A stretch of DNA of 63,869 nt from a virus (Duplodnaviria > Caudoviricetes): positions 1 through 63,869 of the IMG/VR virus record IMGVR_UViG_3300017967_000018; one strand, written 5' to 3'. The notes beneath the pieces are model-generated. The model was given only the letters and a program-made list of their open reading frames with translations, ran no database searches and was not told the DNA's origin. This document shows, one piece after another, positions 27,939-59,239 of the stretch (position 1 is its first letter; every line of letters starts with the position of its first letter). The position numbers and the translations under genes were made by a program.

Positions 27939-27975
27939 CAGGAGCAAAAGTAAACCGATATATATTTAAATATAT

Positions 27976-28050
27976 GCTGGGCTAGCCCAATTGGCAGGAG
28001 GCGACAGTTTTAGGTACTGTACAGTGTGGGTTCGAATCCCTCGCCCAGTA
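27976..28050 (+). tRNA. tRNA-Leu(TAG), short variable loop, no encoded CCA
   Basis: GCTGGGC/GCCCAGT acceptor stem, ACAGT-TTTAGGT-ACTGT anticodon arm, GGTTCGAATCC T-arm, A73. Confidence 0.9.
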
Positions 28051-28055
28051 TTCTC

Positions 28056-29690: not shown

Positions 29691-29701
29691 ACAATGTTCA
29701 T

Positions 29702-29785
29702 GCTCAGGTGGCGGAATCGGCATACGCGCTAGTTTAAGGTACTAGTTTCCGAAAGGAATTGAGGGTTCGAGTCCCTCTCTGAGTA
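29702..29785 (+). tRNA. tRNA-Leu(AAG), long variable arm, no encoded CCA
   Basis: GCTCAGG/TCTGAGT acceptor stem; CTAGT-TTAAGGT-ACTAG anticodon arm; TTCC-GAAA-GGAA variable arm; GAGGG-TTCGAGT-CCCTC; A73. Confidence 0.92.
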
Positions 29786-29851
29786 TTAAAATTTACTAAC
29801 AAGAAATAAGGCCTTTAATCGGGCTTTATTTAATTTTTAAGGAGAATTAAC

Positions 29852-51409: not shown

Positions 51410-52578
51410 TAATACCACCCGCTTTCGCTGTCTTGAATAGTAATTTGGAAAGGGCTGTCTTGCCAAATTTTCTTAGGGTTCCATCTTCTTCTGGCTGCTT
51501 CAACAATTTCTTCTGCTTCAGTATCGGTGAAATTTCTATCTTTAAAGAATCGTTGAAATGTTTTTACTGCGCCTTTGAATGTAACTGAGTTAGCTATCCT
51601 TTTAAGAGCTTCATTTTCAGTAAATGTTTTAGGAATGCTTTCGACTCGAACTGGAGGTTTGTTTTTCCTTACGCCAGAGCGAGGATCAAAAGATCCTCCT
51701 CTACTTGGATCATTAATGTCTGGATTGCTAGAGCGGTAGGATGGTTCTGGCTTCTTATCGTATTGAATGCTATTTAGGGCATGTAGAACTTTAACCCAAG
51801 CATTAAATGCCATTTGTATATTGTTTGTATTTTTTACAGCATAATCTAATTGTGCCAAATCATTTATTAGTGCCAAAGAGCCTCTATTTTGAGCATACTT
51901 TTTCATAAAAGTATTATGATCATTAATTGATGCTAATATCCCTTTAAGAATATCTTCGTTTGGCACGCTAGGGTCTGAGACAGAAGGCTTCTGGGATGAA
52001 GTTTGACTATTTGGTTCGGACTCAGGAGTAGAGGTGTCATCTTGAGATTCTTGATCAATTTGTGCATCAAATAACTGCAAGTCTCCGTATGCTGATTTTA
52101 ATACACTCAGCATGTCATTGATATCACCAGACATGATCTCCTGAGCTTGCTTTTCTCCTTCTTCGCCCGAAACAATTAAACTTCTAATATGTTCCAAATT
52201 TTTCATTGATTTATCAAGTGATCTTTTTAGCTTGCCACCCAAAGCTAAATCTCTGAAGTAATTGCCAACAGAAGAAAATGGCACTTTAACTATTTCTCCA
52301 AGTCCACCTAGAAAATCTCCGAAACCAGCAGTCTTGATTTCTTCTAGTAAATTTTCACTTTCTTTTGTATGCATGCAAATAAGAAGTGATTCTAAGTCTT
52401 TGGCTAATTTTATGAATTCAGAGTTGTTTCTGGCAAATGTTTGAATATTTTCATCTGATAGTTTGTCAAATTTCTTATGAAAAGAAATTATTTTAGGAAG
52501 CATTTCATCTAATTGGTCTGCTTCTTTGAACATGCTTTTCTTGTCCAAATCATTAGCTAACTGTGCTATTTTAATCAT
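51409..52578 (-). CDS. Putative head/ejection protein with several K-x-A sites
   Basis: IKIA|Q, FKEA|D, IKTA|G, KKYA|Q. Confidence 0.65.
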   Translation of the reverse strand: MIKIAQLANDLDKKSMFKEADQLDEMLPKIISFHKKFDKLSDENIQTFARNNSEFIKLAKDLESLLICMHTKESENLLEEIKTAGFGDFLGGLGEIVKVPFSSVGNYFRDLALGGKLKRSLDKSMKNLEHIRSLIVSGEEGEKQAQEIMSGDINDMLSVLKSAYGDLQLFDAQIDQESQDDTSTPESEPNSQTSSQKPSVSDPSVPNEDILKGILASINDHNTFMKKYAQNRGSLALINDLAQLDYAVKNTNNIQMAFNAWVKVLHALNSIQYDKKPEPSYRSSNPDINDPSRGGSFDPRSGVRKNKPPVRVESIPKTFTENEALKRIANSVTFKGAVKTFQRFFKDRNFTDTEAEEIVEAARRRWNPKKIWQDSPFQITIQDSESGWY

Positions 52579-52649
52579 TTTACATGCATCCTAAGGGGGT
52601 GTACACATTATATTATTGGGCGATTTTAAAAATTTTCCTTCAAGAACAT

Positions 52650-52678
52650 TTGACTTTTTGGGGGTTGTTGACTATAAT
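52650..52678 (+). promoter_or_regulatory. Sigma70-type promoter of the Y RNA/rsr operon
   Basis: TTGACT-N17-TATAAT, 3 nt before the first RNA. Confidence 0.85.
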
Positions 52679-52681
52679 AGG

Positions 52682-52750
52682 TTCAGCAGGCCGAAGAATA
52701 AAGGTTATCTACCGTTTATAGAATCCCCTTTAATCGCTAACTCGTCTGAA
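52682..52750 (+). ncRNA. Y RNA-like #1
   Basis: CAGGC(C)GA pairs with TCGTCTG; upper stem TAAAGG/CCTTTA followed by TTATCT; upstream of Ro60. Confidence 0.75.
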
Positions 52751-52754
52751 TTTT

Positions 52755-52844
52755 TCGCAGTATAAAATCGAATAAGAAACTTTATAGTGGAGTTCTTTAG
52801 TAGATCATGCTGGCTAACGGAGGTTCAATTCCTTCTACTGCGAC
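52755..52844 (+). ncRNA. tRNA-like RNA #1 (8-bp acceptor stem plus T-arm; degenerate D/anticodon arms)
   Basis: TCGCAGTA/TACTGCGA; GGAGG-TTCAATT-CCTTC. Confidence 0.65.
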
Positions 52845-52882
52845 TTTTTGATACGCAGGGTATCAAAAATAATCGCCTCTAT

Positions 52883-52995
52883 TTGAGCCGAAATAATTGG
52901 ATTATCTACAGATGACAAGTTCAGATGTGGCGTCCCAGAGGCGTCCAAGTAGGACACTGCTTTATTTTCTTCCAATTATAATAAAAATTGCTCAA
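52883..52995 (+). ncRNA. Y RNA-like #2
   Basis: TTGAGC(C)GA pairs with TTGCTCAA; upper stem ATAATTGGA/TCCAATTAT followed by TTATCT. Confidence 0.75.
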
Positions 52996-53091
52996 GCGAA
53001 AAGAGATGGTCAACTCTTGACACCAAAAAACCAAAGCAGTGTTATGTATTATTCGCGCGATATATTTCCCAATAAGAGATAAATCGCTTTA

Positions 53092-53176
53092 ACAGACCGA
53101 ATGGATTGAACGTTATCTTCAAATGCTATATGAAACTGCGGCTACATGCCGCTCTCGTTCGCCGCAACTTGTCTGT
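53092..53176 (+). ncRNA. Y RNA-like #3
   Basis: ACAGAC(C)GA pairs with TTGTCTGT; upper stem TGAACG/CGTTCG followed by TTATCT; GCGGC/GCCGC hairpin in the loop. Confidence 0.8.
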
Positions 53177-53182
53177 AATTTT

Positions 53183-53255
53183 GATTGGTTAGCTTAACAG
53201 GAAAAGCACCTGTCAGATCGACAGGATGAATACGGTTCGAGGCCGTGACCGATCT
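53183..53255 (+). ncRNA. tRNA-like RNA #2 (full cloverleaf, non-canonical anticodon loop)
   Basis: GATTGGT/ACCGATC, GCTT/AAGC D-arm with GG, CCTGT-CAGATCG-ACAGG, TACGG-TTCGAGG-CCGTG; no U33 and no purine 37. Confidence 0.75.
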
Positions 53256-53361
53256 TTTAAAAACGCTTTAGCAGGGCGAAAAACTGAAATATAGACTAAG
53301 AAAATAACCTTGTGGTTATGGTGTGTCTATACTCGTTTTAACATAAAAAGGAGCAATCGTT

Positions 53362-55044
53362 ATGGCTAAGAACTACGCACAATTATCGGGCAAGACTAAG
53401 GCTGCTGCAATGTTAACTCCACAGAAGGAGAAGGCGGTAAAGGGTCAGGTCAAGAATAACGAGGGTGGATATGTCTTCAAGGTCGATGACTGGACAAGGC
53501 TTAATAGATTCTTGATTCTTGGTAGTGAAGGTCCAACCTATTACCAGTCTGCTGAGAAGCTGACTAAGCAGAATGCCAAGGCTGTTACTCGTTTGATCGA
53601 GAGCGGCGAGGGCATCAAAGTTGTTGACACTGTAGTTGAAATCAGCGATCAAGGCAGGGCATACAAGAATGGTCCAGCACTATTCGTTCTTGCTCTTTGT
53701 GCTTCTTACACTGCTAAGAAGTCCAAGGCAGAATATGCAACCGAGTTAAGAAGGTACGCTTTTGCTAACCTGAATAAGGTTGCAAGAATTGGTACTCACT
53801 TGTTTGAGTTCGTTCACTACGCAGACTCCCTTCGTGGCTGGGGCAAGGCCTTTCAAAAGGCTGTTGCTAACTGGTATAATGAAAAGACCGCTGACAAGGT
53901 TGCTTATCAGGTCTGTAAGTACGCAAGCAGAAGGCTTGAAGGCGAATTGGCTTGGAGTCACCGCGACTTGCTAAGAAAGACACACCTAAGGCCAGCTACT
54001 GCGGCTCACGACACTGTGTTCCGTTATGTAACTAAGGGCAAAAAGGCCTTCAGTGACGCTGAGTGGGCTGAACTTAAGGATTCCAAGGAATTGGGATATG
54101 TTTGGGCCCACGAAGAAGTTAAGAACGCAGAGAAGGCTTCCGAAGTTAAGGCTTTGGTTAAGAACTATAATCTTGCACAAGAATCCATTCCAACCGAATG
54201 GAAGAAGGATGTAACTGTTGGTAGGGCATTGCTTGAAAACATGCCAATTACTGCTACTATTAGGGGCGTGGGCAAGCTCACTGCAAACGATGTTATTAAG
54301 CCGCTTAGCAAGGAGGCCTCTATTGTTTGCGATAGAATCACTAACGAAGAACTTATCAGAAAGGGCAGGGTTCACCCATTGCAATTCCTGATTGCTTTGA
54401 AGACCTATCAGTCTGGCGGTGGTTTCAGAGGAAGCTTGAACTGGACTCCAATTCCTCAGGTGTGCGATGCACTGGAAGAGGGTTTCTATAAGGCATTTAA
54501 CTATGTAGAGCCAACTGGCAAGAACTACATGTTAGGAATTGACGTTAGTGGTTCTATGGGCAGCTATAGATGTGGCGGGGCAGACTGTCTTACTGCTGCC
54601 CAAGGTGCAGCAGCAATGGCAATGACTATTGCTAGAACTGAAAAGAATTATGACATGAAGGGCTTCCATCATGGTCTGGTTGATTTGAAGATTAAGGCTA
54701 CTGACTCTTTGGAAACTGTCTTGAAGAAGACAGGCATCAACAACTGGGGTGGCACTGACTGTTCTGTGCCAATGCAGTATGCCATTGACAACAAGCTAGA
54801 TGTTGATGTGTTCGTTGTTATCACTGACAATGATACTCACTCTGGAAAAAGCGGTCACCCGTTCCAGGTTCTGGAGAGATATAGAAAGGAGAGAAACAAG
54901 CCAGAAGCTAAGTTGATTGTTATGGCTATGACTCCAACTAACTTCTCCATTGCAAACCCTGAAGACCCAGGAATGTTCGATGTTGTTGGCTTTGACGCTA
55001 GTGTGCCAAGGGTCATTAGCGAATTTGTCAAGGGTAATATTTAA
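53362..55044 (+). CDS. rsr: Ro60-related TROVE + vWA RNA-binding protein
   Basis: N.EGGYVF......RL.RFLILGSEG.TYY, WSHRDLLR..H, GRVHP, MIDAS DVSGSM, GGTDC..P, ITDND, D.VGFD; SD AAGGAG. Confidence 0.95.
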   Translation: MAKNYAQLSGKTKAAAMLTPQKEKAVKGQVKNNEGGYVFKVDDWTRLNRFLILGSEGPTYYQSAEKLTKQNAKAVTRLIESGEGIKVVDTVVEISDQGRAYKNGPALFVLALCASYTAKKSKAEYATELRRYAFANLNKVARIGTHLFEFVHYADSLRGWGKAFQKAVANWYNEKTADKVAYQVCKYASRRLEGELAWSHRDLLRKTHLRPATAAHDTVFRYVTKGKKAFSDAEWAELKDSKELGYVWAHEEVKNAEKASEVKALVKNYNLAQESIPTEWKKDVTVGRALLENMPITATIRGVGKLTANDVIKPLSKEASIVCDRITNEELIRKGRVHPLQFLIALKTYQSGGGFRGSLNWTPIPQVCDALEEGFYKAFNYVEPTGKNYMLGIDVSGSMGSYRCGGADCLTAAQGAAAMAMTIARTEKNYDMKGFHHGLVDLKIKATDSLETVLKKTGINNWGGTDCSVPMQYAIDNKLDVDVFVVITDNDTHSGKSGHPFQVLERYRKERNKPEAKLIVMAMTPTNFSIANPEDPGMFDVVGFDASVPRVISEFVKGNI

Positions 55045-55051
55045 GTCCTAC

Positions 55052-55085
55052 ACAGGTGAGGCCTCGGCCTTGCCTGTTTTCTTTA
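55052..55085 (+). terminator. Intrinsic terminator candidate after rsr
   Basis: ACAGGTGAGGC-CTCG-GCCTTGCCTGT followed by TTTCTTT. Confidence 0.65.
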
Positions 55086-55170
55086 TGCAAACCCTTACGT
55101 TCAAATAGGGGGTTTTTGCATGCCCTGCTAAAAAGCCAATAACATTATATGGATAATAATTTGGCTTTGT

Positions 55171-55208
55171 ATGAGACTGGCCTGTAGGCACCAGTCTCAT
55201 ATTTTTTT
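55171..55208 (+). terminator. Second intrinsic terminator
   Basis: ATGAGACTGG...CCAGTCTCAT followed by ATTTTTTT. Confidence 0.75.
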
Positions 55209-55243
55209 AGAGGTATTTTCATATTTTAATGCAATTATAATGC

Positions 55244-56410
55244 ATGACATGGTATCTAAAACAAATTAAAATTGCTGCTCCGAAAGATAAGATCAGAAGA
55301 TTTAACGTCACTGATCCTGTTTTGCAAGTATTTATTCAGCAATATGAAAAACTTGTAGATTGGAATACGGTCAAAAACGAAGAAGAAATTCAAGATTATA
55401 TTTACGACATTTTGATGCCATCAGTAATTTCTCAAATAGAAAGAGACTCTTCAAATAATGTCTATATTAAAGATGTAGACCTAGAAGCGCAAGCTCAGCA
55501 ATTAGAGAATGACCCCACCTTTATTCATCACCCACAATATCAGCAGGCAATGCAGGCAATGCAATGGTACCGAATGTATCCAGAGCAAGCCAAGCAACAA
55601 GCAATGGCGATTGTTAATGATGAGAAAGAACAGGTGTTTGATAAGTGGTGGAATTATCTTACAGAGGTTAACGAGGAATATAGTGACAATCCAGCTTGGC
55701 AGTATATAATAATGAATTCTTTAGTTAAATCTTCTCCTGATACTTCTCAAACAATGCCAATGACACTAAATGCAGAAGCGCTGGCTGAAATATGGTATGG
55801 ACTAAAAGAAAATCCTGTGCCATTTAACTTTATGAAAAAATATCAAGAAGTATCTGCTAGAATTGATGCTAAAAATGCAGAATTTATTGCAACCGATGAA
55901 ACTGGAACAAACGGGTGGATTTCAATTCCTGGCCAAAAAAATGATCCTCAAAACTTTGAAGAAAATGTAGAGAAACTTATTAGATTCTCTCATGGAAATG
56001 ATTGGTGTACGGCAGCAGGAGGAGCAGGTGGTTTCCTAAAGCAAGGGAACTTCTGGCTATACCTTGAGGGTGGAAGGGCAGTTGTTGCAATAAGAACATT
56101 GGACACTGGAAGTCAAGAGATGGCAGCAGAAATACAAGGGCCAGGAAACAATCCGCCCCTAGGTCAAGTCCAGCAAATTAAACAATTTATAGATTCTAAT
56201 CCAAACATTATTTGGGACAAGGCTATACACTACCAAACTTTAATGGAATCTCTGTCTCAACAGCAGCCTCAACAGCAATTTACTGAAGAGCCTGAAGAAG
56301 ACGAAGAAGATTGGGAGGCATTGCAAGCTGAATGGGATGCATTTGACCAAATACACGGAACCGAAGAAAAGCAGGCTTCTAATAATTGGTATAAAAAAAT
56401 AACAATCTGA
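55244..56410 (+). CDS. Hypothetical protein with an N-terminal WY leader (MTWYLKQIKIA|A) and a C-terminal KQA|SNNWYKK tag
   Basis: 388-aa ORF; WCTA...VAIR...AEIQG core. Confidence 0.75.
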   Translation: MTWYLKQIKIAAPKDKIRRFNVTDPVLQVFIQQYEKLVDWNTVKNEEEIQDYIYDILMPSVISQIERDSSNNVYIKDVDLEAQAQQLENDPTFIHHPQYQQAMQAMQWYRMYPEQAKQQAMAIVNDEKEQVFDKWWNYLTEVNEEYSDNPAWQYIIMNSLVKSSPDTSQTMPMTLNAEALAEIWYGLKENPVPFNFMKKYQEVSARIDAKNAEFIATDETGTNGWISIPGQKNDPQNFEENVEKLIRFSHGNDWCTAAGGAGGFLKQGNFWLYLEGGRAVVAIRTLDTGSQEMAAEIQGPGNNPPLGQVQQIKQFIDSNPNIIWDKAIHYQTLMESLSQQQPQQQFTEEPEEDEEDWEALQAEWDAFDQIHGTEEKQASNNWYKKITI

Positions 56411-56421
56411 TAAAAATAGAC

Positions 56422-56450
56422 TTGACAAAATGCTTAAAATCAAGTATTCT
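56422..56450 (+). promoter_or_regulatory. Sigma70-type promoter
   Basis: TTGACA-N17-TATTCT. Confidence 0.65.
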
Positions 56451-56487
56451 ATGGCAGAAATGCACTGGTTTTAATAGGAAAAATATC

Positions 56488-56988
56488 ATGAAAAGAATAG
56501 AGCCTCAAAACATTGAGGGCAAGACCCTTTATATCTTGCGTGGACCATCTGGTGTTGGCAAAAGCACTTTAGCGAAAGAGCTAGGGGCTAAAGAGACTTT
56601 TTCTGCTGATGACTATTTCATGAAGGGTGACAGTTACGAATTTGACCCCAACGGCCTTGCCTCTGCTCATGGAACTTGTCAAAGATTGACAGAAGAAGCC
56701 ATGCAAAAGGGAGTTTCTCCTGTTGCTGTTGACAATACTTTTACTACTAGGCGAGAAATTAAGCCATATGCTATTCTTGCAAAAAACTATGGCTATAAAT
56801 TAGAATTTGTTGAGCCTGACTGGACACCTGATCTTAGAAATGAAGATGGTACTTGGAATGCTGATTTCATCGAGCAAATGCAGAAAAACCCAGATAGGGC
56901 TAGAATGAACAAAAGTCTTCCAAGGAATGTTGTTGACAAAATGGTAAATAGATATCAGTACGACCTTGATCCTAATGACATCGTGTAA
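56488..56988 (+). CDS. AAA_33/N4BP2-like P-loop (polynucleotide) kinase
   Basis: ILRGPSGVGKSTLA, SADDYF, AHG.CQ, VDNT. Confidence 0.8.
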   Translation: MKRIEPQNIEGKTLYILRGPSGVGKSTLAKELGAKETFSADDYFMKGDSYEFDPNGLASAHGTCQRLTEEAMQKGVSPVAVDNTFTTRREIKPYAILAKNYGYKLEFVEPDWTPDLRNEDGTWNADFIEQMQKNPDRARMNKSLPRNVVDKMVNRYQYDLDPNDIV

Positions 56989-56990
56989 CC

Positions 56991-57323
56991 ATGGGCTATA
57001 CAGAATACAACGCGCAACTCACTCCTGAATTAAAAGGTCTTATATTAGAATTTGTACAAACTAATAACGCAAGTCCTACAGGCATATGGAGAGACTTTCA
57101 ATGCGTCCATCGTTCTTGGAGGAACTTGCAAAATTTTGTTGACGCAGGATTGCTCATAGAGTCAGATGTGCCCGACGAGCCTGATGCCACAGATTATCCT
57201 GATACATCGTCTGATGCAACAGTTCAATGTCCAGAAAGCTGCTGTAAAAACTGCATGCCCGTTCGAGGTTGTCAGTGTGCATTTTGTCACGACAAAACTT
57301 ACGAGCCACCACCTACAGGCTAA
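56991..57323 (+). CDS. Hypothetical protein with Cys-rich C-terminus
   Basis: CPESCCKNC...GCQCAFC. Confidence 0.6.
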   Translation: MGYTEYNAQLTPELKGLILEFVQTNNASPTGIWRDFQCVHRSWRNLQNFVDAGLLIESDVPDEPDATDYPDTSSDATVQCPESCCKNCMPVRGCQCAFCHDKTYEPPPTG

Positions 57324-57324
57324 T

Positions 57325-57516
57325 TTATTCTGAGATATTATTCTGTGAACTGGCCTGATCTGACCCTTTAAGCTTATCAAAGAAATTGGAGAATGGAGAC
57401 TTTCCTTTCTCAGCGCCAGTATCTAGCTGTTGCTTTAATTGTTCAAAGTCTATGTGGTTGGGATTTGCTCCCACTCCCTTTAGTTCGCCTCTTCTAATCG
57501 GTTCTGGCTTTGGCAT
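57325..57516 (-). CDS. Hypothetical small protein
   Basis: SD AAGGAG, coupled to the upstream gene. Confidence 0.6.
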   Translation of the reverse strand: MPKPEPIRRGELKGVGANPNHIDFEQLKQQLDTGAEKGKSPFSNFFDKLKGSDQASSQNNISE

Positions 57517-58149
57517 TTAGTTCTCCTTGAGTTCTATTAGTTGGTCTTTGATTTCTTTCAATTTACAATTATATGGATACCATCCTTTAGGCATATCAGA
57601 TAGATATTTATTGATAGTATGATCATATATCATAGCCCATTTATTCTGTAGTTCAATAGACTGTGTTTTTATTTTATCTTTCGATGAACTAGTTGAGATT
57701 TCAGCATATTCTTCTGCTTCTTTTTTTATTTCATGCCATTCTTCTACGGACTCAGGAATACCGCCCCAATGGAGAATTTTATTGTCAGAAGAAATAACCC
57801 ACTTCTTGAATTTAAATGGGTTATTGCTTTTAGCTATTAGTTTCTTGGTAAAATTAACAGTATTTAGGTCGTATCCCAAATCCTCTAGTTCATCAAGCGG
57901 CATGTAAAGAGGCGAATCGTCTGAGTCGTTTACCGACATTAGGTCTTCTGAAAAATATATTGTTTTAAGAACAATATCTACTTCTTTAATGCTTGCCTTC
58001 TCATTGTTGTAGTTGTCGGCAAGCTGGCCCCATGCATAGGCCTTCTTGACTCCATGAATAGCTGTTAAATTAGCTACCAGTTGGCCCAAGTCATCTTTAA
58101 CCTCTGAAATTTGAGGCATACTTTTTTTATACCAAGACTTTGTTTTCAT
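57517..58149 (-). CDS. WYK-leader protein with a degenerate Pol-beta nucleotidyltransferase-like N-terminal domain
   Basis: MKTKSWYKKS; GVKKAYAWGQ.A......EVDIVL resembles hG[GS]...DhDh. Confidence 0.5.
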   Translation of the reverse strand: MKTKSWYKKSMPQISEVKDDLGQLVANLTAIHGVKKAYAWGQLADNYNNEKASIKEVDIVLKTIYFSEDLMSVNDSDDSPLYMPLDELEDLGYDLNTVNFTKKLIAKSNNPFKFKKWVISSDNKILHWGGIPESVEEWHEIKKEAEEYAEISTSSSKDKIKTQSIELQNKWAMIYDHTINKYLSDMPKGWYPYNCKLKEIKDQLIELKEN

Positions 58150-58246
58150 AGTGTTATATATTTTTTATTTATTAAAAATCCTTCTTTATTATTGTGACGA
58201 AGGCGTAATAGACGATAATAGTATAAACGGATTTTGAGGAAAATTT

Positions 58247-59239
58247 ATGTACAAGTATCAAATAATCGGATCATTTTTAGGGACCGCTGTAGGCGATGCT
58301 CTTGGCATGACTGTAGAGATGAAAACTCCAGAATTTATTAAAGATAAATATGGCAGGATAACAGACTACATACAGGTTGAGGGAGAAGTTAAATCTAAAG
58401 GCGAATGGACCGATGACACACAACTTATGCTTGCGACAGCAGAGGCTATGATTGAAGCAAAAGGCTTTGATATGGATGCAATAGCCGAACATCACAAAAA
58501 AGCATATAAAGAATCAACCTTCGGCTGGGGCGCAAGCACTAAAAGTGCCGTAAAAAACATGACAGAAGGCACAGCTTGGCACAAAGCAACAGAAGTAGCC
58601 TACTTTGGCCAAGGATCGGGAAATGGCGTTGTCATGAAGCTCCTGCCAGTGGCAGCGTATTGCGCCAAGAAAAAGATAGATTTTAAGGAAGCATCTAAGA
58701 TACTTTGGAATTTTACTGCAATGACCCACACTAGCACAGTGGCGCAGCAAGCCACTTTTGCTCACTACACTGCACTACGAGATATCTTTGACTCTGGGCA
58801 AAGTAAATTTGATTCTGCTACATTTATAAACAAAATACATAAAGATTTAACAGAATATTCTTCTTTTGCTTTTTATAGTGTAGACAAAGAAGAAAACTTG
58901 ATAAAACAATACGATAGAATCAAAGATCTTCCCCTGATGCTTGATGAATCTAATGATGCAGAACAATTTAGAAGCACTATAGGAAAGGGTGGGTGCTATG
59001 TCTATGAAAGCATACCCTTGGTTCATGCTATATTTTTAACTGATCCTATGAATTTTGAATGTGTAATTAATACTGTTAATTATGGCGGGGACACAGGCAG
59101 CAATGCTTCTATGGTTGCTGGATTGCATGGGGGACTAGTAGGAGAAAAACAGATACCAAAGAATTTGATTAAGGAATTAGAGGGCAAAGACAGGACTATT
59201 GATGTGGCAAACAAATTTTGGGAGTTATTAAATGATTGA
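58247..59239 (+). CDS. ADP-ribosylglycohydrolase (ARH/DraG family)
   Basis: G.AVGDALG, WTDDTQ, GNG..MK, MTH, GGDTGSN. Confidence 0.9.
   Translation: MYKYQIIGSFLGTAVGDALGMTVEMKTPEFIKDKYGRITDYIQVEGEVKSKGEWTDDTQLMLATAEAMIEAKGFDMDAIAEHHKKAYKESTFGWGASTKSAVKNMTEGTAWHKATEVAYFGQGSGNGVVMKLLPVAAYCAKKKIDFKEASKILWNFTAMTHTSTVAQQATFAHYTALRDIFDSGQSKFDSATFINKIHKDLTEYSSFAFYSVDKEENLIKQYDRIKDLPLMLDESNDAEQFRSTIGKGGCYVYESIPLVHAIFLTDPMNFECVINTVNYGGDTGSNASMVAGLHGGLVGEKQIPKNLIKELEGKDRTIDVANKFWELLND

What the first reader, a model, noticed from the sequence alone, without database searches (positions are those of the whole stretch)
52755..53255. Two tRNA mimics interleaved with the Y RNAs
Seen: the order is Y1 - tRNA-like1 - Y2 - structured spacer - Y3 - tRNA-like2 - rsr. 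Mimic 2 is a full cloverleaf with canonical D-loop GG and TTCGA T-loop, but its anticodon loop CAGATCG lacks U33 and purine 37 and can close to 5 nt. Mimic 1 keeps only an 8-bp acceptor stem and a 5-bp T-arm. Inference: not decoding tRNAs. They could be a split YrlA (Ro stem and tRNA domain as separate molecules), RNase P/Z punctuation marks that cut out the Y RNAs, or decoys for anticodon nucleases and tRNA-sensing defences.
Basis: partly seen in the sequence, partly recalled or inferred. Interest (0 to 1): 0.75.

Follow-up and report, generated by a model that had tools for sequence, protein, structure and literature searches.

The report
tRNA-like punctuation in phage Y-RNA operon
A large phage carries, in front of its Ro60-like gene, three Y RNAs separated by two tRNA-shaped elements that cannot decode; these probably act as cutting signals that release the Y RNAs, a new twist on a known RNA family.

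Summary
One sigma-70-type promoter (52650-52678) precedes Y1, tRNA-like 1, a hairpin, Y2, a spacer, Y3, tRNA-like 2, a leader and rsr (TROVE + vWA_Ro60), with no + strand terminator before 55052. A covariance model built from 110 phage tRNAs gives four hits in the window: two real tRNAs, mimic 2 (37.4 bits) and mimic 1 (24.2 bits, acceptor and T arm only); the next hit scores 9.2 bits. ARAGORN made 0 calls in 2.55 Mb of simulated sequence.

Mimic 2 does not decode. It has A33 and C37, and a natural strain variant carries an 8-nt duplication in the anticodon loop while its acceptor, D and T arms are unchanged.

Both mimics begin 6-7 nt after a Y RNA's Ro-binding helix. A related phage locus, L024, shows the same junction. 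In at least 10 of 69 phage rsr loci a genuine tRNA ends 2-5 nt before a Y RNA.

Best reading: tRNA-derived RNase P/3'-processing handles that release the Y RNAs. Mimic 1 also carries a Y-type CGAA-N9-UUAU motif and may bind Rsr.

This is a new variant of a known kind. No RNA ends were mapped.

The parts
52650..52678 (+). sigma-70-type promoter TTGACT-17-TATAAT; implied start about 52685, at the base of the Y1 helix
   Evidence: 11 of 12 matches; sequence
52685..52755 (+). Y1: 5' helix strand CAGGC, bulged C, GAAG, N9, UUAUC; 3' strand UC-GUCUG (52742-52748); A/U tail up to 52755
   Evidence: strain changes keep the pairing or lie in loops
52755..52844 (+). tRNA-like 1: 7-8-bp acceptor stem, 5-bp T arm (loop UUCAAUU), 56-nt interior with two hairpins and a CGAA-N9-UUAU motif at 52769-52785; discriminator A, no encoded CCA
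   Evidence: R1 24.2 bits; ARAGORN -ps; fold; motif; variants
52845..52869 (+). perfect 10-bp hairpin with a 5-nt loop between mimic 1 and Y2; no U run follows it, so it is not called a terminator
   Evidence: I11; one search lists no + strand terminator here
52871..53010 (+). Y2: 5' UUGAGC, bulged C, GAA, N9, UUAUC (52883-); 3' UU-GCUCAA (52988-52995); outer CUCU/AGAG pairing; large branched interior
53011..53080 (+). spacer; weak fold. It contains TTGACA (53018-53023), 17 nt, then TGTTAT, a possible weak internal promoter. 53033-53042 is perfectly complementary to 52954-52963 inside Y2
   Evidence: (I2)
53081..53182 (+). Y3: 5' ACAGAC, bulged C, GAA, N11, UUAUC (53092-); 3' UU-GUCUGU (53169-53176); tail AAUUUU (53177-53182)
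   Evidence: no change listed at 53084-53182 in run X12's covering contig
53183..53255 (+). tRNA-like 2: full cloverleaf (7/4/5/5 bp), D loop with GG, T loop UUCGAGG, anticodon loop CAGAUCG (A33, C37), discriminator U, no encoded CCA
   Evidence: variant with an 8-nt loop duplication
53256..53361 (+). rsr leader: a Y-like 5' half (53260-53280, 81% identical to the Y3 5' segment, GGCGAA) without UUAUC or a clear 3' partner; stable hairpin 53290-53331; ribosome-binding site
   Evidence: D1, D3; z -2.81
53362..55044 (+). rsr (Ro60-related protein, 560 aa)
   Evidence: relatives
55052..55077 (+). first + strand intrinsic-terminator-like site after the promoter

Best explanation
The two elements are tRNA-derived, non-decoding tRNA-like modules that punctuate a polycistronic Y RNA-rsr transcript.

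Inferred mechanism. The host's tRNA-processing enzymes recognise the acceptor/T-arm minihelix. RNase P cuts at 52755/52756 and at 53182/53183. This creates the 3' ends of Y1 and Y3, each a Ro-binding helix plus a 6-7-nt A/U tail, and the 5' ends of the tRNA-like RNAs. tRNA 3' processing after the discriminators (A52843, U53255) frees the downstream parts: the hairpin with Y2, and the rsr leader.

The elements descend from the genuine tRNAs that flank Y RNAs in other phage rsr loci and have lost the anticodon function.

Shown: the structures, their statistical significance, the junction geometry, the recurrence in other phages, and strain variation that spares the acceptor, D and T arms.

Inferred: co-transcription, the cleavages, and any fate of the released tRNA-like RNAs.
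For: (1) tRNA-likeness far above chance: R1 gives 37.4 and 24.2 bits against 9.2 for the next hit. ARAGORN made 0 calls in 2.55 Mb of simulated sequence.

(2) One strong promoter, and no + strand terminator before 55052.

(3) Both mimics start 6-7 nt after the last pair of a Y helix. L024 (Rsr 44% identical) has promoter, Y, a 6-nt tail, then a 98-nt normal-order tRNA-like (R1 40.5 bits, RF00005 43 bits) with 31 nt in place of the anticodon loop.

(4) Genuine tRNAs end 2-5 nt before a Y 5' helix in at least 10 of 69 phage rsr loci. L025 alternates three tRNA-Pro genes with Y elements.

(5) Precedent (PMC4201824, results section read): D. radiodurans Yrn2, tRNA-Asp and Yrn1 are made as one precursor. 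M. smegmatis YrlA, with a 7-bp acceptor stem, is cut by RNase P and receives CCA. The bioRxiv paper 10.1101/312249 (passages) recalls that RNase P cleavage at tRNA-like structures forms the 3' ends of mammalian lncRNAs.

(6) Loss of decoding: A33 and C37. In run X12, a strain variant has an 8-nt duplication in the anticodon loop. None of the 7 substitutions within the two mimics falls in an acceptor, D or T stem. By my arithmetic these stems are 56 of 162 nt, so the chance of 0 of 7 is about 0.05.

(7) The phage's two real tRNAs also lack an encoded CCA, so CCA-less 3' processing is the norm here.
Against: No RNA ends were seen. The only RNA-library contig (run X20, 241 nt, 53224-53462) runs across the proposed cut at 53255/53256 and may be DNA or precursor.

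RNase P sites explain only the 3' ends of Y1 and Y3. The 5' ends of Y2 and Y3 and the 3' end of Y2 have no tRNA-like signal.

In most other loci the tRNA lies before the Y RNA, not after it. A Y helix ending within 12 nt before a tRNA or tRNA-like was called in 2 of 69 loci, the window and L049. L024 was read by hand.

A minihelix would be enough for RNase P, yet mimic 2 keeps a complete D arm and anticodon stem, which hints at a further role.

RF00005 does not list mimic 2.

The closest Rsr relative, L016 (50% identical), has only a weak candidate (acceptor 6 of 7 pairs, T loop UGCAAAU) that R1 does not list at E<=5.

The Y detector used for the 69-locus survey is permissive and called at least one 'Y' in 68 of 69 loci.
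Confidence: 0.5

Rival explanations
1. The tRNA-like modules are working parts of the Ro ribonucleoprotein, the normal-order counterpart of the permuted tRNA-like domain of YrlA. Mimic 1 would itself be an Rsr-binding Y RNA built on a tRNA scaffold (terminal stem in the acceptor position, as described for D. radiodurans Yrn1). Mimic 2 would be a tRNA-shaped effector-binding module made next to Y3. This can hold together with the processing role.
For: The window has no permuted YrlA: no RF02553 hit at E<=10, and neither T arm is followed by an acceptor-like hairpin and a D arm.

Mimic 1 carries CGAA-N9-TTAT at 52769-52785, in register with Y1 and Y2. Four such sites cluster on the + strand at 52692-53116; the whole window has 13 against 7.26 expected.

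In run X12, two adjacent changes turn the AUCGAA of mimic 1 into GCCGAA, the letters found in Y1 and Y2.

L025 (1291-1417, 1437-1565) and L023 (1221-1316, 1326-1450) hold normal-order tRNA scaffolds with a Y motif in place of the anticodon arm.

The tRNA-like in L024 has the same D-arm letters as a permuted YrlA in the same cluster (read by eye).

Mimic 2 keeps all four arms, more than RNase P needs.
Against: Mimic 1 has no bulged Ro-binding helix around its CGAA (read by eye), and its UUAU is followed by A, not C.

Mimic 2 has no CGAA motif.

The motif count is post hoc. No binding data exist.

Good 7-bp acceptor stems should be cut from the Y RNAs by RNase P, so the parts would not stay tethered.
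Confidence: 0.25
2. They are decaying pseudo-tRNAs, remnants of tRNA genes that once sat among the Y RNAs, with no present role.
For: Both have lost the anticodon features. Mimic 1 has lost recognisable D and anticodon arms. The anticodon loop varies in length between strains. Phage rsr genes often lie in tRNA clusters.
Against: Acceptor and T arms are intact in both. All 21 pairs of mimic 2 are standard. Strain variants spare the acceptor, D and T stems, and one change in mimic 1 turns a G-U into an A-U pair. The same Y, 6-nt tail, tRNA-like junction occurs twice here and again in L024, whose Rsr is only 44% identical.
Confidence: 0.12
3. They are decoys for anticodon nucleases or tRNA-sensing defences.
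For: Only context. A P-loop kinase with polynucleotide-kinase and RNA-ligase PHROG matches lies two genes downstream. A review reads phage TROVE proteins as part of RNA repair (PMC7824862, passage).
Against: The anticodon loop of mimic 2 lacks U33 and R37, so it copies no real tRNA loop. The loop tolerates an 8-nt duplication in a natural strain. Mimic 1 has no anticodon arm that R1 can align. No nuclease or defence partner was identified.
Confidence: 0.05
4. Mimic 2 is a working tRNA-Ile(GAU).
For: ARAGORN default call. Regular cloverleaf with standard pairs. Like the phage's real tRNAs, it lacks an encoded CCA.
Against: A33 and C37 together occur in 1 of 145 ARAGORN tRNAs near phage rsr genes, the window's own. 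A strain variant has an 8-nt loop duplication. The discriminator is U. RF00005 gives no hit.
Confidence: 0.03

Closest known systems
YrlA (Rfam RF02553), the tRNA-mimicking bacterial and phage Y RNA (Chen et al. 2014, PMC4201824)
   Same: Lies within 4 kb of rsr on the same strand. Has a tRNA-type T arm, a D arm (mimic 2) and an acceptor-type stem. A CGAA motif is nearby. M. smegmatis YrlA has a 7-bp acceptor stem, is cut by RNase P and receives CCA.
   Different: YrlA is one molecule with permuted order (Ro motif, V, T, closed acceptor-like hairpin, D). Here the tRNA-like parts have normal tRNA order and open acceptor stems, and they sit beside the Ro-binding helices rather than inside them. 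RF02553 gives no hit at E<=10.
D. radiodurans Yrn2 - tRNA-Asp - Yrn1 polycistronic precursor (PMC4201824)
   Same: Y RNAs and a tRNA-shaped element are made from one transcript upstream of rsr. tRNA processing would set the Y RNA ends. Many phage loci here show a tRNA, often tRNA-Asp, 2-5 nt before a Y RNA.
   Different: There the tRNA is genuine. Here the elements cannot decode (A33 and C37; D and anticodon arms lost) and lie after the Y RNA.
[quoted passage not shown]
   Same: A non-decoding tRNA-like element directly downstream of a noncoding RNA, where RNase P cleavage forms that RNA's 3' end and releases a small tRNA-like RNA.
   Different: Eukaryotic nuclear system with no known relation by descent. 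Cleavage is not shown here.
Thermus phage phiLo Yrl1 and Yrl2 with phage Ro60 (PMC12135203, passages)
   Same: Phage-encoded Ro60 with CGAA-bearing Y-like RNAs upstream of the gene.
   Different: The passages I read mention no tRNA-like elements there. I did not read the whole paper.

Membership tests
decoding tRNA (RF00005 / ARAGORN) | cloverleaf with 7/4/5/5-bp stems and a T loop of the UUCRANY type | tested here: met
   Met for mimic 2: ARAGORN default, R1 37.4 bits with all pairs standard. Mimic 1 meets only the acceptor and T arm.
decoding tRNA (RF00005 / ARAGORN) | 7-nt anticodon loop with U33 and purine 37 | tested here: not met
   The loop is CAGAUCG (A33, C37). A strain variant has 8 extra nt in the loop.
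decoding tRNA (RF00005 / ARAGORN) | reaches Rfam's gathering score (29 bits) | tested here: not met
   No RF00005 hit over mimic 2 at E<=10. Only the T arm of mimic 1 is listed, at 11.2 bits. The same model lists L024:1218-1314 at 43 bits, so the miss is specific. The cause was not resolved and may be the speed filters.
decoding tRNA (RF00005 / ARAGORN) | aminoacylation and use in translation | not testable with these tools
   Needs acid-gel northern blots or charging assays.
YrlA (RF02553) | permuted order: 5' Ro motif, V, T arm, closed acceptor-like hairpin, D arm, 3' strand | tested here: not met
   Both T arms pair their following 7 nt with a strand upstream, 56 and 41 nt away, which is normal order. 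The definition comes from PMC4201824.
YrlA (RF02553) | GNCGAAN0-1G motif near the 5' end | tested here: inconclusive
   Mimic 1 has AUCGAAU in the window and GCCGAAU in the run X12 variant. Mimic 2 has none. Y1 has GCCGAAG.
YrlA (RF02553) | Rfam score | tested here: not met
   No RF02553 hit in 52400-55400 at E<=10. Related loci L023 and L021 score 37.4 and 35.5 bits against a cut-off of 69.
YrlA (RF02553) | within 4 kb of rsr, same strand | tested here: met
   The mimics lie 107 and 518 nt upstream of rsr on the + strand.
Y RNA (Ro-binding module), for Y1-Y3 | terminal helix with a bulged C followed by GA paired to UU or UC, and a conserved 5' strand | tested here: met
   Three sites found with a 3' partner (5, 6 and 6 of 6 pairs), all at 52686-53176. 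The MFE folds keep the helices. The motif was defined post hoc.
Y RNA (Ro-binding module), for Y1-Y3 | bound and stabilised by Rsr | not testable with these tools
   Needs co-immunoprecipitation or EMSA.
tRNA-like 3'-end processing element / tRNA punctuation | tRNA-like element directly downstream of the mature end of another RNA on one transcript | tested here: met
   The junctions lie 6-7 nt after the Y1 and Y3 helices. There is one promoter and no terminator between. Co-transcription itself is inferred.
tRNA-like 3'-end processing element / tRNA punctuation | cleavage by RNase P at the 5' end of the element | not testable with these tools
   Only contigs of public runs were available, and these show no ends.

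The most novel reading that the evidence does not exclude
Mimic 1 is itself an Rsr-binding Y RNA built on an unpermuted tRNA scaffold. Together with the capped-Y, open-acceptor chimeras of L025 and L023 and the tRNA-like of L024, the window would then show how tRNA-mimicking Y RNAs arise. tRNA-Y dicistrons would fuse or degenerate into every possible way of joining a tRNA fold to a Ro-binding helix: side by side, inserted in the anticodon arm, or permuted as in YrlA. The tRNA fold would be an obligatory, modular partner of phage Ro60 RNPs, not only a processing signal.
Probability: 0.25. Interest if true: 0.7.

Novelty: new variant of a known kind. Interest (0 to 1): 0.55.

Why it matters
Bacterial Y RNAs are known to mimic tRNA, but what the tRNA-like module does is still unknown (PMC4201824; bioRxiv 10.1101/312249).

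This operon separates the two modules physically. The Ro-binding helices and the tRNA folds lie side by side, with the tRNA folds stripped of decoding features. That makes two questions directly testable:
- Is the tRNA fold needed only to make Y RNA ends through RNase P and 3' processing?
- Or does the released tRNA-like RNA, or a tethered one, act in the Ro RNP?

The survey of 69 phage rsr loci also suggests that tRNA-Y adjacency is a general design in phages and a plausible evolutionary source of YrlA.

The element is conserved across several salt-marsh and marine metagenomes, so natural variants are available for covariation analysis.

Tried and rejected
Rfam scans of the region gave no Y_RNA, YrlA or tRNA hit for mimic 2 (RF00005 on the whole record). 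I could not explain why RF00005 misses mimic 2 when R1 and ARAGORN find it.

Close relatives were sought with the Rsr protein. Viral contigs gave 1 locus. Metagenome contigs gave 8 loci at no more than 47% identity. Genome contigs gave none. Of these loci, only L006 shows simple Y RNAs upstream of rsr; the others show none, and none of the eight loci scanned has a tRNA by ARAGORN. Profile queries then gave 8 loci and 58 loci.

Exact patterns from mimic 1 and mimic 2 found nothing in viral contigs.

My first Y detector was too permissive: 62 and 65 hits per strand against 81 in simulations. I replaced it.

The candidate tRNA-like in L016 (1794-1896) folds well (z -4.12) but is not listed by R1 at E<=5, so I count it only as possible.

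Public runs. All four runs laid were contigs, so no ends, strand or expression level can be read. The RNA-library contig (X20) covers 53224-53462 only, and I draw no conclusion from it. Gaps in cover at 52910-53064 in some runs are not evidence.

The 388-aa neighbour gave no Pfam, PHROG or PDB sequence match. The Atlas pointed to viral clusters in which a minority of members carry PcfJ. I did not pursue it.

A decoy role and a working tRNA-Ile were considered and rated low, for the reasons given under the rivals.

Papers. Chen 2014 (PMC4201824): outline and the whole results section read. bioRxiv 10.1101/312249, PMC7824862, PMC12135203 and PMC12282133: passages only. Two reviews (PMC10870794, PMC6047535) are not held. 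Chen 2014's supplementary tables of phage YrlA hits could bear on novelty and could not be seen. My statement that separate normal-order tRNA-like elements beside Y RNAs are not in print rests on searches only.
Full report
WHAT IS THERE. The window is a 63.9-kb fragment of a viral record (CheckV completeness 13%), so probably part of a very large phage. It also encodes a sigma factor, ribonucleotide reductase and glycosyltransferases.

The ORF at 53362-55044 is a Ro60-related protein (vWA_Ro60 3.7e-56, TROVE 5.2e-34). Upstream lies a 680-nt non-coding stretch. It starts at a strong sigma-70-type promoter (TTGACT-17-TATAAT, 52650-52678). No + strand terminator-like site occurs before 55052. A single transcript from about 52685 through rsr is therefore the simplest reading, but it is inferred.

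THE Y RNAs. Three elements carry the Ro-binding design described for Y RNAs. Each has a 5' strand of six helix bases, a bulged C, GAA, 9-11 nt and UUAUC. Each 3' strand is UU or UC followed by the complement of the helix bases. They are Y1 (52686- / 52742-52748), Y2 (52883- / 52988-52995) and Y3 (53092- / 53169-53176).

A strict scan finds exactly these three in the whole window. Simulated strands give a mean of 0.59 per 63.9 kb, although I defined the motif after seeing the sites. The CGAA core matches the GNCGAA motif of Chen et al. 2014 and the 'CGAA motif' used for Thermus phage phiLo. The MFE folds keep the helices. Rfam lists no Y_RNA or YrlA hit.

THE tRNA-LIKE ELEMENTS. ARAGORN at default settings calls 53183-53255 tRNA-Ile(gat). 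With -ps it also draws 52756-52844 as an 89-nt type II cloverleaf. It made 0 calls in 2.55 Mb of simulated sequence at either setting.

I built a covariance model (R1) from 110 ARAGORN tRNAs taken from other phage rsr loci. I searched the window with filters off. It gave four significant hits:
- The two genuine tRNAs, at 48.6 and 34.9 bits.
- Mimic 2, at 37.4 bits (E 8.5e-8), with every pair standard.
- Mimic 1, at 24.2 bits (E 3e-4), aligned through the acceptor stem, U8-A9, the end of the variable region and the T arm, with the D and anticodon arms skipped.
The next hit scores 9.2 bits.

Rfam's own tRNA model never lists mimic 2, although it lists comparable elements in L024 and L025. I could not resolve this discrepancy, and the speed filters may be the cause.

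NOT DECODING. Mimic 2 has the loop CAGAUCG (A33, C37). Among 145 ARAGORN tRNAs in 69 rsr loci, seven break U33 or R37, and only the window's breaks both.

Contigs of public metagenomes give natural variants. In run X12 (contigs of 5.5 and 8.1 kb, depth about 14), mimic 2 carries these changes:
- A53208C (position 26).
- T53213A together with an 8-nt insertion that duplicates the loop sequence.
- T53227C (variable loop).
It has no change in the acceptor, D or T arms.

In the same run, mimic 1 carries these changes:
- A52767G and T52768C, in the linker after the acceptor strand.
- G52789A, which turns a predicted G-U into an A-U pair.
- A52804G, in a hairpin loop.
It has no change in the acceptor or T arm.

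So 0 of 7 substitutions hit acceptor, D or T stems. By my arithmetic the chance of that is about 0.05. Runs X10 and X7 show no differences in the parts of the two mimics that they cover.

An anticodon loop that tolerates eight extra bases is not used for decoding. The real tRNAs of this phage also lack an encoded CCA, so the missing CCA says nothing either way.

JUNCTION GEOMETRY AND RELATIVES. Both mimics begin 6-7 nt after the last pair of a Y helix. The tail is AAUUUUU before 52756 and AAUUUU before 53183.

No close relative of the locus is available. The best Rsr identity is 50%, in L016. Across 69 phage or metagenome rsr loci, however, the theme recurs:
- (a) L024 (Rsr 44% identical) has a promoter, a Y RNA, a 6-nt tail, and then a 98-nt normal-order tRNA-like. 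That element has canonical acceptor, D and T arms and 31 nt in place of the anticodon loop. R1 scores it 40.5 bits and RF00005 43 bits; ARAGORN does not call it.
- (b) Genuine tRNAs end 2-5 nt before a Y 5' helix in at least 10 of 69 loci. Many of these are related Streptomyces-phage-like contigs with tRNA-Asp. Four more loci qualify on the 5' motif alone.
- (c) L025 (a 498-kb contig, Rsr 47% identical) alternates three tRNA-Pro genes with Y elements.
- (d) L016 has a possible acceptor-plus-T-arm element ending 3-4 nt before a Y RNA. R1 does not support it.
- (e) Many loci carry canonical permuted YrlA, in which the T arm is followed by a closed acceptor-like hairpin. The window has none.

The Ro-like gene of Streptomyces phage WhereRU sits inside a tRNA cluster.

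MECHANISM. The published precedents are as follows. D. radiodurans makes Yrn2, tRNA-Asp and Yrn1 as one precursor. M. smegmatis YrlA, with a 7-bp acceptor stem, is cut by RNase P and gains CCA. RNase P cleavage at tRNA-like structures forms the 3' ends of mammalian lncRNAs.

On this basis I favour (0.5) that the two elements are tRNA-derived processing handles. RNase P would cut at their 5' ends and make the 3' ends of Y1 and Y3. tRNA 3' processing would free what follows.

The weak points are these. No ends were observed. The other Y ends remain unexplained. Most relatives place the tRNA before the Y RNA, not after it. Mimic 2 keeps more structure than RNase P needs.

RIVAL READINGS. The main rival (0.25) is not exclusive of the processing role. 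It holds that the tRNA folds are functional modules of the Ro RNP. Three observations support it:
- Mimic 1 carries CGAA-N9-UUAU in register with Y1 and Y2. Four such sites cluster at 52692-53116 on the + strand.
- The X12 variant changes its AUCGAA to GCCGAA, as in Y1 and Y2.
- L025 and L023 contain normal-order tRNA scaffolds with a Y motif, its helix capped by a small hairpin, in place of the anticodon arm.
Such chimeras are the reciprocal of YrlA's permutation.

The remaining rivals are relic pseudo-tRNAs (0.12), decoys (0.05) and a working tRNA-Ile (0.03).

COMPARISON AND NOVELTY. The elements work like tRNA punctuation or an RNase P-processed tRNA-like 3'-end element. They belong to the wider world of tRNA-mimicking Y RNA loci. 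They are not members of YrlA, because order, closed acceptor and Rfam score all fail. They are not decoding tRNAs, because the anticodon loop and RF00005 fail.

Three literature searches found no description of separate, normal-order, non-decoding tRNA-like elements abutting Y RNAs. Two reviews and the supplements of Chen 2014 could not be seen.

Noticed in passing
L025:1291-1417 and 1437-1565; L023:1221-1316 and 1326-1450: Normal-order tRNA scaffolds (open 7-bp acceptor, D arm, T arm) whose anticodon arm is replaced by a Y module. In three of the four the Ro-type helix is closed by a small hairpin directly before the C-GAA or C-G motif and is followed by UUAUC. This is the reciprocal of YrlA's permutation. 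RF00005 scores L025:1437-1564 at 50.9 bits.
   Followed up: partly
L046, L050-L052, L054-L057, L071 (about 1500-1880 in each locus): In Streptomyces-phage-like contigs a tRNA-Asp(gtc) ends 2-3 nt before a Y RNA 5' helix upstream of rsr. D. radiodurans has the same tRNA identity in front of Yrn1.
   Followed up: partly
window 53260-53345: The rsr leader begins with a segment 81% identical to the 5' part of Y3 (GGCGAA). It lacks UUAUC and a clear 3' partner and is followed by a stable hairpin (z -2.81). It could be an Rsr-binding site on the gene's own mRNA, or a degenerate fourth Y.
   Followed up: no
window 52954-52963 and 53033-53042: A perfect 10-nt complementarity links the interior of Y2 with the spacer (18 nt at 83% overall). 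It competes with the Y2 terminal helix and might be an alternative fold.
   Followed up: no
window 53018-53046: TTGACA, 17 nt, then TGTTAT in the spacer: a possible weak second promoter for Y3, mimic 2 and rsr. The scan's rule did not call it.
   Followed up: no
window 27975-28051: A well-scoring tRNA (48.6 bits) with anticodon UAG (Leu) has a short variable region and is 75-77 nt long, whereas the second Leu tRNA (29701-29786) has the long arm. The second has its own TTGACT-17-TATAAT promoter, and neither encodes CCA.
   Followed up: no
window 53183-53255: Rfam's tRNA model does not list this element even at E<=10 in a 101-nt search, while ARAGORN and a purpose-built tRNA model score it clearly. 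Unexplained.
   Followed up: partly
window 55244-59239: Downstream of rsr lie a 388-aa protein with no Pfam, PHROG or PDB match (Atlas lead: viral clusters with a minority of PcfJ members), a 188-aa P-loop kinase with polynucleotide-kinase and RNA-ligase PHROG matches, and an ADP-ribosylglycohydrolase.
   Followed up: partly
window 52836-52858: The 3' acceptor strand of mimic 1 can also pair (5-6 bp) with CGCAG in the downstream hairpin region. That would give a closed acceptor-like hairpin after the T arm, as in YrlA, but no D arm follows it.
   Followed up: no
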